The notes: generated by a model not told the origin, from the letters alone. Positions 13,456 to 14,371 are shown, counted from the first letter of the stretch. The stretch is DNA of 64,000 nucleotides from Nanobdellota archaeon (GCA_018819305.1 JAHJQO010000010.1:8429-72428); one strand, 5' to 3'. Numbers and translations: made by a program.

Positions 13456-14217
13456 TTATTTAATTGCTTTTAAGGTTTCAACCAGCTTGTCAAGAGCTGC
13501 ATGAACCTCTGCTTCGGACTTAGTTCCTGTGCAAACCACTTTTCCATTGCTAAACAGCAAAAATGTGGCTTTTGCTTCCATCAATTTATAAACCAGTCCT
13601 GGAAATTGTTCAGGTTCATATTCTGTATTGTCTAATTTCATAGCTAAAACATTTAAATTAAGATCCATACCAATACTTCCACTCGCAACAATGTTCTGAA
13701 TATTTAGTTTTGGTTTAATAGTAATATTAATACCTATTTTCTTTAGGCTTTCTATGATTCGGTCAATGCTTTCCTCCACTTTCTCAATGCTTCTAGCTCC
13801 TGTGCAAACCACTTTTCCTGAACTAAAGATTAAAGCAGAAGTTTTAGGATCCTTTATTCTAATTACTAGTCCTGGAAATTGTTCAGGATTATATTCAGTG
13901 TTGCTCAATGTTGCAGCCATTTTCTCAAGTGGAATATCATGCTCTAAGCTTGTTGATACAACTATATTAACAATACGGATATCTTTTGGTCCCGCATTAG
14001 CATATTTTTCAGATACTTTTTTGACACTTGATTTAATAGTTTGAACAGGCTTCTTTTTTACCTTTGCCAGTGATTTTTTTGCTACCTTTTTTACTAGTTT
14101 TTTTTGAATAGTCTTTTTGACTATTTTTTTAGCAATTATTTTCTTTTTTGGCTTTGAAACTTTTTTTGCTGTCTTCTTTTTAACAGCTTTCTTGGTTTTA
14201 TTTGTTTTTTTCACCAT
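13456..14217 (-). CDS. tbp: TATA-box binding protein with about 75-aa lysine-rich N-terminal extension
   Basis: Two TBP repeats (NPEQFPGLVIRIKDPKTSALIFSSGKVVCTG and EPEQFPGLVYKLMEAKATFLLFSNGKVVCTG) follow MVKKTNKTKKAVKKKTAKKVSKPKKK.... There is no in-frame ATG/GTG/TTG between the tail and the TBP fold. Confidence 0.9.
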   Translation of the reverse strand: MVKKTNKTKKAVKKKTAKKVSKPKKKIIAKKIVKKTIQKKLVKKVAKKSLAKVKKKPVQTIKSSVKKVSEKYANAGPKDIRIVNIVVSTSLEHDIPLEKMAATLSNTEYNPEQFPGLVIRIKDPKTSALIFSSGKVVCTGARSIEKVEESIDRIIESLKKIGINITIKPKLNIQNIVASGSIGMDLNLNVLAMKLDNTEYEPEQFPGLVYKLMEAKATFLLFSNGKVVCTGTKSEAEVHAALDKLVETLKAIK

Positions 14218-14347
14218 TATGATTCCCCCTTATTTTACGTTTAGTCGAGAGCTTTATAAACCCTTTATAAAGGAGAAAATCCAGCCCATTTATAAATGCT
14301 TTTATCCTGAAAAATAGGTTTAACAAAGATTGTTTTGAAAAACATAA

Positions 14348-14371
14348 GCCCCCATGATTTCCTATGGAAAC
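14348..14371 (-). promoter_or_regulatory. ORB-type box (second cluster, copy a)
   Basis: The reverse complement reads gtTTCCAtagGAAAtcatgGGGGC. Confidence 0.5.

What the first reader, a model, noticed from the sequence alone, without database searches (positions are those of the whole stretch)
13993..14217. TBP carries a histone-H1-like lysine-rich N-terminal tail
By my count about 32 of the first 72 residues are Lys (MVKKTNKTKKAVKKKTAKKVSKPKKKIIAKKIVKKTIQKKLVKKVAKK...). The canonical two-repeat TBP fold begins after that. No in-frame ATG, GTG or TTG lies between the tail and the fold, and a palindromic TATA box (ctttataaa, 14252-14260) with a G-rich SD precedes the ATG at 14217, so the tail is very likely translated. 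Archaeal TBPs are normally about 180 aa with an acidic C-terminal tail, which is absent here. A polycationic tail could provide non-specific DNA affinity in an AT-rich genome full of TATA-like sequence. It could also substitute for missing chromatin proteins.
Basis: partly seen in the sequence, partly recalled or inferred. Interest (0 to 1): 0.6.

Follow-up and report, generated by a model that had tools for sequence, protein, structure and literature searches.

The report
Polylysine-tailed TATA-binding protein of Woesearchaeota
The only TATA-binding protein of this groundwater Woesearchaeota archaeon starts with a 78-residue, floppy, strongly positive lysine tail, and every relative in its family has one too; it most likely acts as a non-specific grip on DNA, a variant of this core transcription factor that I could not find described in the literature.

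Summary
The ORF at 13456-14217 (-) encodes a 253-aa TBP. Residues 1-78 hold 33 Lys, no Arg or Asp and one Glu; the two-repeat TBP fold starts at residue 79. The only usable start is the ATG at 14217, so the tail must be translated to make a complete fold.

The tail is not a one-off. All 14 genomes of the same GTDB family in which a TBP was found have a single tbp gene with a long basic N-tail (48-139 aa, net charge up to +73). Their promoter and Shine-Dalgarno site sit directly upstream of the tail's ATG. Outside the family, 78 Woesearchaeota species have tails of 30 aa or less, but long K-rich tails arose again elsewhere (206 aa in another family).

Tail sequence and length drift, yet acidic residues are almost excluded (3.2%). 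A K-rich extension on aIF2-gamma in the same genus has 19.7%. This argues for selection on positive charge.

The most likely role is a disordered electrostatic DNA anchor; this is inferred, not shown. "H1-like" holds for composition only. The idea that it replaces missing chromatin proteins is not supported, because Alba and a histone-fold protein are encoded. This is a new variant of a known kind, of moderate interest. A side finding: the tbp promoter holds the genome's only triple TTTATAAA cluster.

The parts
13456..14217 (-). tbp gene, 253 codons plus stop; the only TBP gene found in the genome
   Evidence: ORF list; Pfam TBP x2, E 4.6e-62; the only two PF00352 hits in the 1.53-Mb genome are its two repeats
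13984..14217 (-). Coding region of the N-terminal tail, residues 1-78: 33 K, 0 R, 0 D, 1 E, net charge +32, predicted disordered
   Evidence: Composition; pLDDT 44-56 and no secondary structure; no Pfam family on it; weak 12-14 nt tandem repeats at 14075-14130
13984..14010 (-). Linker motif EKYANAGPK (residues 70-78); family consensus [ED]K[YF][AP]xAGP[RK], directly before strand S1
   Evidence: Conserved in the tailed clade but absent from short-tailed relatives
13735..13983 (-). TBP repeat 1 (residues 79-161)
   Evidence: Pfam stretch 79-161; S1 79-90, H1, S2-S5, H2 144-160 in the model; aligned to 2Z8U, 1AIS, 1PCZ and 1MP9
13459..13710 (-). TBP repeat 2 (residues about 170-253), ending right after helix H2' with no acidic tail
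   Evidence: Model elements E172-181 to H235-252; alignment to solved archaeal TBPs
14225..14229 (-). Shine-Dalgarno-like GGGGG, 7 nt upstream of the ATG
   Evidence: Sequence; a GGAGG/GGGGG block at the same place in 11 orthologues
14240..14271 (-). Proximal promoter block: TTTATAAA (14264-14271), GGG, TTTATAAA (14253-14260), then GCTCTCGACTAAA (14240-14252)
   Evidence: Nearly invariant in 11 genomes of the genus. A TATA box centred at about 14256 predicts a start near 14230, giving a leader of about 13 nt that contains the SD (inference from the usual archaeal -26/-27 spacing)
14289..14296 (-). Distal third TTTATAAA, inside the 12-nt palindrome CATTTATAAATG
   Evidence: Invariant in 11 orthologues. 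The three octamers form the only such triple within 60 nt in the genome; 0.02 are expected

Best explanation
This is the sole general TATA-binding protein of a groundwater Woesearchaeota archaeon (GTDB order with at least 136 families, phylum Nanoarchaeota sensu GTDB). Onto a canonical, charge-neutral TBP saddle the lineage has added a long, intrinsically disordered, purely cationic N-terminal tail (78 aa, +32 here; 48-139 aa and +17 to +73 in the genus). The tail is transcribed and translated with the fold from the ATG at 14217. It evolves fast in length and sequence, partly by short internal duplications, but it is kept basic and almost free of acidic residues. The most likely mechanism (inferred) is as follows. 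The tail leaves the core at the start of strand S1, at the side of the DNA duplex near the middle of the TATA box. From there it lies on the phosphate backbone of flanking DNA as a sequence-independent electrostatic anchor. This would raise TBP's general DNA affinity, speed up target search along AT-rich DNA, and lengthen the otherwise short life of archaeal TBP-DNA complexes. It would work as K-rich tails do on actinobacterial topoisomerase I, HupB and Ku, and on linker histones.
For: Shown: the composition and its significance. A complete fold has only one possible start. The core is a TBP fold with TM 0.86-0.89 to archaeal TBPs, and the tail is disordered. The DNA-contact motifs are intact in both repeats: NIVxS in S1, EQFPGLV, and the F in LIFSSGK / LLFSNGK. 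There is one tbp gene per genome, and all 14 genomes of GTDB family f1 in which a TBP was found have open frames of 217-325 aa. The tails in 11 genus orthologues are 48-139 aa with 38-58% K+R, while the cores have net charge -1 to +1. The sister genus has 96-102-aa K/P/S/T tails. TATA boxes and SD are conserved immediately upstream of the tail ATG whatever the tail length. Evidence for selection on charge: tails have 3.2% D+E (1.4% without the linker) and 0.4% Asn, although GAA/GAG and AAT/AAC are one step from Lys codons. The proteome has 13.1% D+E and 5.6% Asn. The K-rich N-extension of aIF2-gamma in the same genus has 19.7% D+E (Fisher P = 1.6e-32). The tails are patterned: basic runs of 2-3 and hydrophobic residues recurring at lag 4-5 (z = 2.7 and 4.7), so this is not decayed poly-K. 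Long K-rich tails arose again in other lineages: L115, 206 aa, in another family; P0052, 126 aa; P0088, 91 aa; and distant representatives P0132, P0163 and P0128. Lysine-rich low-complexity tails on DNA-binding proteins are known to give non-specific DNA binding (PMC6821194 and its reference to Streptomyces TopA).
Against: No experiment or transcript/protein data exist for this organism: no RNA run holds the locus. DNA binding by the tail is inferred from charge and position only. The genus also puts K-rich low-complexity extensions on aIF2-gamma, on ribosomal proteins S3, L4, S6e and L14e, on a PilB-like ATPase and on membrane proteins. Part of the phenomenon is therefore a lineage-wide tendency, not something specific to TBP. 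Tail length varies threefold within one genus, so no precise length is needed. The exit point of the tail relative to DNA comes from my knowledge of TBP-DNA crystal structures and was not measured here.
Confidence: 0.6

Rival explanations
1. Neutral low-complexity expansion. A-rich Lys codons in a 34% GC genome expand by slippage at protein termini, and the tail is merely tolerated, with no function of its own.
For: Length varies from 48 to 139 aa within one genus, and some tails carry obvious internal repeats such as KKKAVKKKVAKKKAV in L086 and L087. Weak tandem repeats occur in the tail DNA, with A-runs up to 8. The AAA:AAG ratio in the tail (0.70) matches the genome (0.74). Other proteins of the genome carry K-rich extensions.
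Against: Every genome of the family in which a TBP was found (14 of 18) keeps the tail, on its only TBP. Acidic residues and Asn are nearly excluded although they are one mutation away, in contrast to the aIF2-gamma extension in the same genomes. The tails have a patterned rhythm of hydrophobic residue plus KK(K), rich in V/A/I, which need two changes from Lys codons. A conserved linker motif follows the tail. 78 related species have tails of 30 aa or less despite being similar AT-rich DPANN genomes.
Confidence: 0.2
2. The tail serves something other than DNA anchoring. It could bind RNA or an acidic partner protein, drive condensate formation, or act as a regulatory platform whose charge is tuned by lysine acetylation.
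For: Polycationic disordered regions do all of these in other systems (general knowledge; PMC11528048 title and abstract). The conserved EKYAxAGPR linker hints at a specific contact.
Against: TFB of this genome is canonical (307 aa) and has no acidic extension that would pair with the tail. Nothing in the locus points to a dedicated partner. The tail is attached to a DNA-binding saddle, so DNA is by far the nearest polyanion.
Confidence: 0.1
3. Chromatin substitute. Tailed TBP coats and compacts the genome in place of missing histones or Alba.
For: Net charge of +32 to +73 and H1-like composition, most clearly in the sister genus with its TPKK-type repeats.
Against: Alba is encoded (56.6 bits), as is a histone-fold doublet (PF00808, 27.4 bits). 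A separate 252-aa, 35%-Lys protein exists that is a better candidate for an H1-like role. TBP is an initiation factor whose own promoter looks tightly controlled.
Confidence: 0.06
4. Annotation artefact: the tail region is untranslated leader or an assembly error, and the real protein starts near the fold.
For: Gene callers pick the longest ORF, and some relatives' ORFs were indeed over-extended into the promoter (P0024, P0026, L083, L084).
Against: There is no ATG/GTG/TTG between codon 2 and codon 100, and codon 100 lies inside helix H1. SD and TATA boxes sit before the tail ATG in all orthologues. No tail in the family is interrupted by a stop or frameshift. The sequence is identical in contigs from two samples.
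Confidence: 0.02

Closest known systems
Canonical archaeal TBP (M. jannaschii 2Z8U; P. woesei 1PCZ/1AIS/1D3U; S. acidocaldarius 1MP9)
   Same: Residues 79-253 match as a two-repeat saddle: phmmer E 2.9e-53 to 8.4e-49; Foldseek TM 0.76-0.89 and 45-52% identity over 172-179 columns. It is a single-copy general factor.
   Different: The solved archaeal TBPs have only 7-12 residues before S1; this one has 78, with +32 charge. It has no C-terminal acidic tail. P. woesei has 13 residues after the aligned core, acidic to my knowledge; M. jannaschii has none.
Eukaryotic TBP with a lineage-specific N-terminal domain (for example yeast, human)
   Same: The architecture is the same: a variable, poorly conserved, disordered N-terminal extension in front of a highly conserved core (PMC3597702).
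   Different: Eukaryotic extensions are described there as interaction sites for TBP-associated factors that emerged late in eukaryotes. The long N-extensions of the more distant TBP representatives are mostly Q/S/P/N- or D/E-rich. Here the extension is polylysine, in an archaeon, and arose independently.
Lysine-repeat tails on bacterial DNA-binding proteins (Streptomyces/Mycobacterium topoisomerase I C-terminal lysine repeats, mycobacterial HupB and Ku)
   Same: These are also disordered, K-rich, lineage-specific tails of variable length added to a conserved DNA-binding domain, and they have been shown to stabilise the protein-DNA complex non-specifically (as cited in PMC6821194). This is the closest functional analogue.
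   Different: There is no homology. Those tails are C-terminal, bacterial and A/K/P-rich. None is on a transcription initiation factor.
Linker histone H1 C-terminal domain
   Same: About 40% Lys, disordered, and nearly free of acidic residues. The sister genus's tails carry TPKK/SPKK-like motifs.
   Different: There is no winged-helix globular domain. In this genus V/I/A replace H1's A/P, and only one S/T-P-K-K-like site (SKPKKK) is present.
Lysine-rich tails on TBPs of other DPANN lineages noted earlier in this scan (Undinarchaeota-, Micrarchaeota-type; AI notes)
   Same: The same kind of feature, read the same way as a non-specific DNA anchor.
   Different: Those are other lineages with shorter tails (about 28-42 aa) or tails at the C-terminus. 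Here the tail is fixed across a whole GTDB family, reaches 139 aa (206 aa in another Woesearchaeales family), and comes with a conserved linker motif and a triple-TATA promoter.

Membership tests
TATA-box-binding protein (Pfam PF00352; archaeal/eukaryotic TBP) | Two tandem TBP repeats in one chain | tested here: met
   PF00352, two stretches, E 4.6e-62, 206 bits against a cut-off of 22.9
TATA-box-binding protein (Pfam PF00352; archaeal/eukaryotic TBP) | Saddle fold: S1-H1-S2-S3-S4-S5-H2, twice | tested here: met
   The AlphaFold2 model shows exactly these elements from residue 79 to 252, with pLDDT 79-94. TM 0.86-0.89 to 1AIS, 1PCZ and 2Z8U
TATA-box-binding protein (Pfam PF00352; archaeal/eukaryotic TBP) | Conserved DNA-contact residues: the paired Phe of each repeat, and Asn/Val of S1 and S1' | tested here: met
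   EQFPGLV and LIFSSGK / LLFSNGK in both repeats, and VNIVVS / IQNIVAS, aligned to the same columns of 2Z8U and 1AIS. These columns are invariant in 48 relatives
TATA-box-binding protein (Pfam PF00352; archaeal/eukaryotic TBP) | Acts as the general initiation factor (binds TATA, recruits TFB) | not testable with these tools
   Indirect only: it is the sole TBP gene, and a canonical TFB is encoded
Linker histone H1/H5 | Winged-helix globular domain (Pfam Linker_histone) | tested here: not met
   At E up to 0.1, no Pfam family other than TBP and a sub-threshold DUF3378 match
Linker histone H1/H5 | K/A/P-rich disordered basic domain with S/TPKK motifs | tested here: inconclusive
   K is 42% and the tail is disordered. 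But V, I and T exceed P, and there is one SKPKKK site only. The sister genus has many TPKK/SAPKP repeats
Functional class: non-specific DNA-anchoring lysine tails (TopA/HupB/Ku type) | Disordered, K-rich, nearly acid-free tail of variable length, attached to a DNA-binding domain and conserved as a feature in a lineage | tested here: met
Functional class: non-specific DNA-anchoring lysine tails (TopA/HupB/Ku type) | The tail measurably increases DNA affinity or complex lifetime | not testable with these tools
   Needs EMSA or single-molecule assays comparing full-length and delta 1-78 protein

The most novel reading that the evidence does not exclude
In this family the polycationic tail may have turned the sole TBP into a dual-purpose protein. 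It would form long-lived, TFB-independent complexes that bookmark promoters or coat AT-rich DNA, possibly as condensates. Its dose would then have to be held in check by direct autoregulation through the genome's unique, genus-invariant triple palindromic TATA array in its own promoter. This would be a simple TBP-level global control of transcription in a tiny symbiont-type cell.
Probability: 0.1. Interest if true: 0.7.

Novelty: new variant of a known kind. Interest (0 to 1): 0.42.

Why it matters
Textbooks and reviews describe archaeal TBP as the bare core domain, with N-terminal extensions regarded as a late eukaryotic addition (PMC7289017, PMC3597702). Here a whole family of uncultivated archaea relies on a TBP with a +17 to +73 disordered tail as its only TBP, and similar tails arose repeatedly in related lineages. 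If the tail stabilises TBP on DNA, it offers a natural experiment on two questions. One is how promoter search and complex lifetime are tuned in AT-rich, TATA-like genomes. The other is how disordered basic tails get added to core information-processing proteins in reduced-genome archaea. The protein is small and easy to express, so the proposal can be tested directly. The effect on the wider field would be moderate, because the mechanism proposed is a familiar one.

Tried and rejected
1. Transcript evidence. No RNA run holds the locus. Only DNA runs from groundwater and lake metagenomes hold it, so the 5' end could not be mapped.

2. Literature. Six full-text searches with combinations of TBP, archaea, DPANN, Woesearchaeota, Nanoarchaeota, lysine-rich and N-terminal found no description of basic tails on archaeal TBPs. 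Absence from this library is not proof of absence.

3. PF28120. The precomputed annotation lists PF28120.1 on about ten close relatives. This family is in neither the local Pfam copy nor the genome-search library, so I could not learn what it models. It may already describe the linker or tail.

4. Names for distant K-tailed TBP representatives (P0132, P0163, P0128, P0052, P0088). The cluster look-up gave no organism names.

5. Homology of the tail to any family. None was found at E up to 1 in four relatives, apart from a meaningless Extensin hit far below its cut-off.

6. Amphipathic-helix or coiled-coil reading of the IIAKKIVKKTIQKKLVKKVAKK stretch. AlphaFold2 gives no helix, and the hydrophobic rhythm is 4-5 residues, not 3.6. 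Rejected as unsupported.

7. Codon-level avoidance of poly(A). The AAA share in the tail equals the genome's, so there is no signal.

8. Partner with an acidic extension. TFB is canonical.

9. Outliers in the order-wide survey. Of five long stop-to-stop frames, four were just open upstream frames with true tails of 13-33 aa. Only G198 has a real long tail.

Full report
**Observation**

The ORF at 13456..14217 on the minus strand encodes 253 aa. The first 78 contain 33 Lys, no Arg, no Asp and one Glu. The remaining 175 residues are charge-neutral: 21 K+R against 22 D+E.

Long ORFs of this genome average 9.7% Lys, so 33 of 78 has a binomial P of 4e-14. Only 16 of 3959 ORFs have a 40-residue window with 16 or more Lys.

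Pfam finds two TBP repeats (E 4.6e-62), the first starting at residue 79. An AlphaFold2 model built on 48 relatives gives the complete S1-H1-S2-S5-H2 pattern twice, from residue 79 to 252, at pLDDT 79-94. It leaves residues 1-78 without secondary structure at pLDDT 44-56. The model's core superposes on archaeal TBPs with TM 0.86-0.89. Sequence comparison puts M. jannaschii, P. woesei and S. acidocaldarius TBPs closest, with the DNA-contact motifs of both repeats intact.

**Is the tail translated?**

In frame, the only start codons are codon 1 (ATG) and codon 2 (GTG). The next are codons 100 and 104, inside helix H1, which could not give a complete fold. A stop lies five codons upstream of the ATG. 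GGGGG sits 7 nt before the ATG, and TTTATAAA boxes lie at 14253-14260, 14264-14271 and 14289-14296.

The stretch is identical, without indels, in contigs from two different groundwater samples.

**Relatives**

- The window lies in a 1.53-Mb, 34% GC Woesearchaeota MAG with one tbp gene.
- In its GTDB family (two genera, 18 genomes), all 14 genomes in which a TBP was found have one gene, with a stop-to-stop frame of 217-325 aa.
- In 11 distinct orthologues of the genus the tails are 48-139 aa, 38-58% K+R, with net charge +17 to +73, on cores with net charge -1 to +1.
- The sister genus has 96-102-aa tails rich in K, P, S and T, with TPKK-like repeats. A TATA box lies about 25 nt before the ATG with no SD, which suggests a leaderless mRNA that starts at the tail.
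- An alignment of the upstream regions of the 11 genus orthologues shows the three TATA boxes, the following GCTCTCGACTAAA, a GGAGG/GGGGG block and the ATG in register, whatever the tail length.
- No tail is interrupted by a stop.
- About 47 further protein clusters from metagenomes with 77-96% core identity show the same architecture, with tails of 39-126 aa and a conserved linker [ED]K[YF][AP]xAGP[RK] just before S1.

The extension is therefore conserved as a feature, inside the transcription unit and inside the reading frame.

**How widespread is it?**

- Among the 80 most similar species representatives, only two have the long tail; by their tail sequences they match two genomes of the window's own genus. 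The other 78 have 3-30 residues before the fold, typically MAKKETKR. A few are moderately basic, for example 30 aa with 14 K.
- In an order-wide sample (192 genomes with TBP, at least 136 families), most listed frames are 179-221 aa.
- Of five outliers checked, four were open upstream frames with true tails of 13-33 aa. One, in another family, has a 206-aa K-rich tail with its own TATA box and SD.
- Among the 150 best 50%-identity representatives of all TBPs, a few distant ones (38-47% identity) also carry K-rich N-extensions of 54-87 aa.
- Earlier AI notes of this scan report similar tails in Undinarchaeota- and Micrarchaeota-type genomes. These are leads, not evidence, but they are consistent with what I see.
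- All 80 Woesearchaeota TBPs end in a basic ...LKKVK-type C-terminus, so the missing acidic tail is the norm in this order.

**Function or drift?**

The tail varies in length and sequence, contains short internal duplications, and uses AAA and AAG as the genome does. The genus also has K-rich extensions on other proteins: aIF2-gamma, ribosomal proteins S3, L4, S6e and L14e, a PilB-like ATPase and some membrane proteins. A lineage-wide tendency to grow such segments therefore exists.

The TBP tail is nevertheless not what neutral decay of poly-Lys would give.

- Over 853 tail residues, D+E is 3.2%, most of it in the conserved linker; without the linker it is 1.4%. Asn is 0.4%. Glu and Asn codons are one step from Lys codons, and the proteome has 13.1% D+E and 5.6% Asn.
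- The aIF2-gamma extension in 15 genomes of the same genus serves as an internal control. It has 30.7% K but 19.7% D+E (Fisher P = 1.6e-32).
- The tails are patterned. Basic runs are mostly 2-3 long. Non-basic runs are mostly 1-2 long and rich in V, A and I. Hydrophobic positions recur at lags 4-5 and 9-10.

Together with retention on the sole TBP of every family genome in which a TBP was found, this indicates selection for a dense net positive charge, though not for a particular sequence or length.

**Mechanism (inferred)**

Strand S1 carries base-contacting residues (Asn and Val of NIVxS), and its N-terminal end lies at the side of the bound DNA. This rests on my knowledge of TBP-DNA crystal structures. 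A disordered +32 chain leaving from there is placed to lie on the phosphates of flanking DNA.

Lysine-rich low-complexity tails on DNA-binding proteins are documented to give non-sequence-specific DNA binding and, for Streptomyces topoisomerase I, to stabilise the enzyme-DNA complex (PMC6821194 and its references). The kinetics and stability of TBP-DNA interaction differ widely among archaea (PMC7289017).

The most economical reading is therefore an electrostatic anchor that raises general DNA affinity, aids search along AT-rich DNA and lengthens promoter residence. I put this at about 0.6. Neutral expansion gets about 0.2. Other polyanion or partner roles get about 0.1.

The chromatin-substitute idea gets about 0.06, because Alba and a histone-fold doublet are encoded. 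A separate 252-aa, 35%-Lys protein is also a better candidate for an H1-like role. TFB is canonical.

**Comparison and novelty**

The protein is a full member of the TBP family. It is not a linker histone, because it has no globular domain, and 'H1-like' describes composition only. Its architecture parallels eukaryotic TBPs, which have a variable N-terminal domain in front of a conserved core. That domain is regarded as a late, eukaryote-specific addition serving TAF contacts (PMC3597702). Here the addition is independent, archaeal and polycationic.

Six literature searches found no description of this. A Pfam family (PF28120) that I could not inspect is attached to some close relatives in the precomputed annotation. 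I rate the finding a new variant of a known kind, of moderate interest.

**Side observation**

The tbp promoter holds three perfect TTTATAAA octamers within 44 nt. This is the only such triple in the genome, with 282 octamers in total and 0.02 triples expected. The octamers are invariant or nearly so across the genus, and two to four TATA boxes also precede tbp in other families of the order. This suggests that TBP controls its own promoter, which would make sense if a sticky, tailed TBP must be dosed carefully. It is untested.

Noticed in passing
window 14240-14296 (-): The tbp promoter carries three perfect TTTATAAA octamers; two are embedded in the palindromes CATTTATAAATG and CTTTATAAAG. 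It is the only triple within 60 nt in the 1.53-Mb genome (expected 0.02). The boxes and the following GCTCTCGACTAAA are invariant or nearly so in 11 genomes of the genus, and multi-TATA arrays also precede tbp in other Woesearchaeales families. Possible TBP autoregulation.
   Followed up: partly
window 14343-14371 (-): The ORB-like box GTTTCCAnAGGAAAnnnnGGGGGCTTATG, about 125 nt upstream of the tbp ATG, is conserved in position and sequence across the genus.
   Followed up: partly
G000 contig C51:913-1672 (-), outside the window: A 252-aa protein with an acidic N-terminus followed by about 180 residues of K/A/P-rich repeats (35% Lys overall) and no Pfam hit. It is a candidate H1-like or nucleoid protein.
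   Followed up: no
G000 contig C40:709-2233 (-), outside the window; L120-L137: aIF2-gamma carries a 104-aa K/E-rich N-terminal extension. Extensions of 56-109 aa are present in all 15 genomes of the genus, but only 16-31 aa in the sister genus.
   Followed up: partly
G000 contig C52:31843-32247 (+), outside the window: A tandem-duplicated, histone-fold-like protein (two copies of MLIVKSK.K.VA...N.G.D.A.ALN...). It matches PF00808 at 27.4 bits and DUF1931 at 23.7 bits.
   Followed up: no
L115 (G198:C38), another family of the same order: A TBP with a 206-aa N-terminal tail, very rich in K, S, A and Q, preceded by its own TATA-like boxes and a GGGGG SD. This is an independent and even longer tail.
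   Followed up: partly
L116, L117 (sister genus, G001 and G002): TBP tails of 96-102 aa built of TPKK/KPTPKK/SAPKP repeats (truly H1-like in composition). A TATA box lies about 25 nt before the ATG with no SD, suggesting leaderless translation.
   Followed up: partly
G000 contigs C15, C16, C37, C56, C41 (outside the window): K-rich terminal tails also sit on what read, by sequence inspection only, as ribosomal proteins S6e, L14e, S3 and L4 (C-terminal) and on an MscS-like channel and another membrane protein (cytoplasmic C-termini); the PilB/T2SSE-type ATPase with an N-terminal K-rich tail was confirmed by Pfam.
   Followed up: no
relatives P0012, P0017, P0018, P0020-22, P0031, P0041, P0045, P0046: The precomputed annotation lists Pfam PF28120.1 on these tailed TBPs. 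The family is missing from the local Pfam copy, so what it models is unknown.
   Followed up: partly
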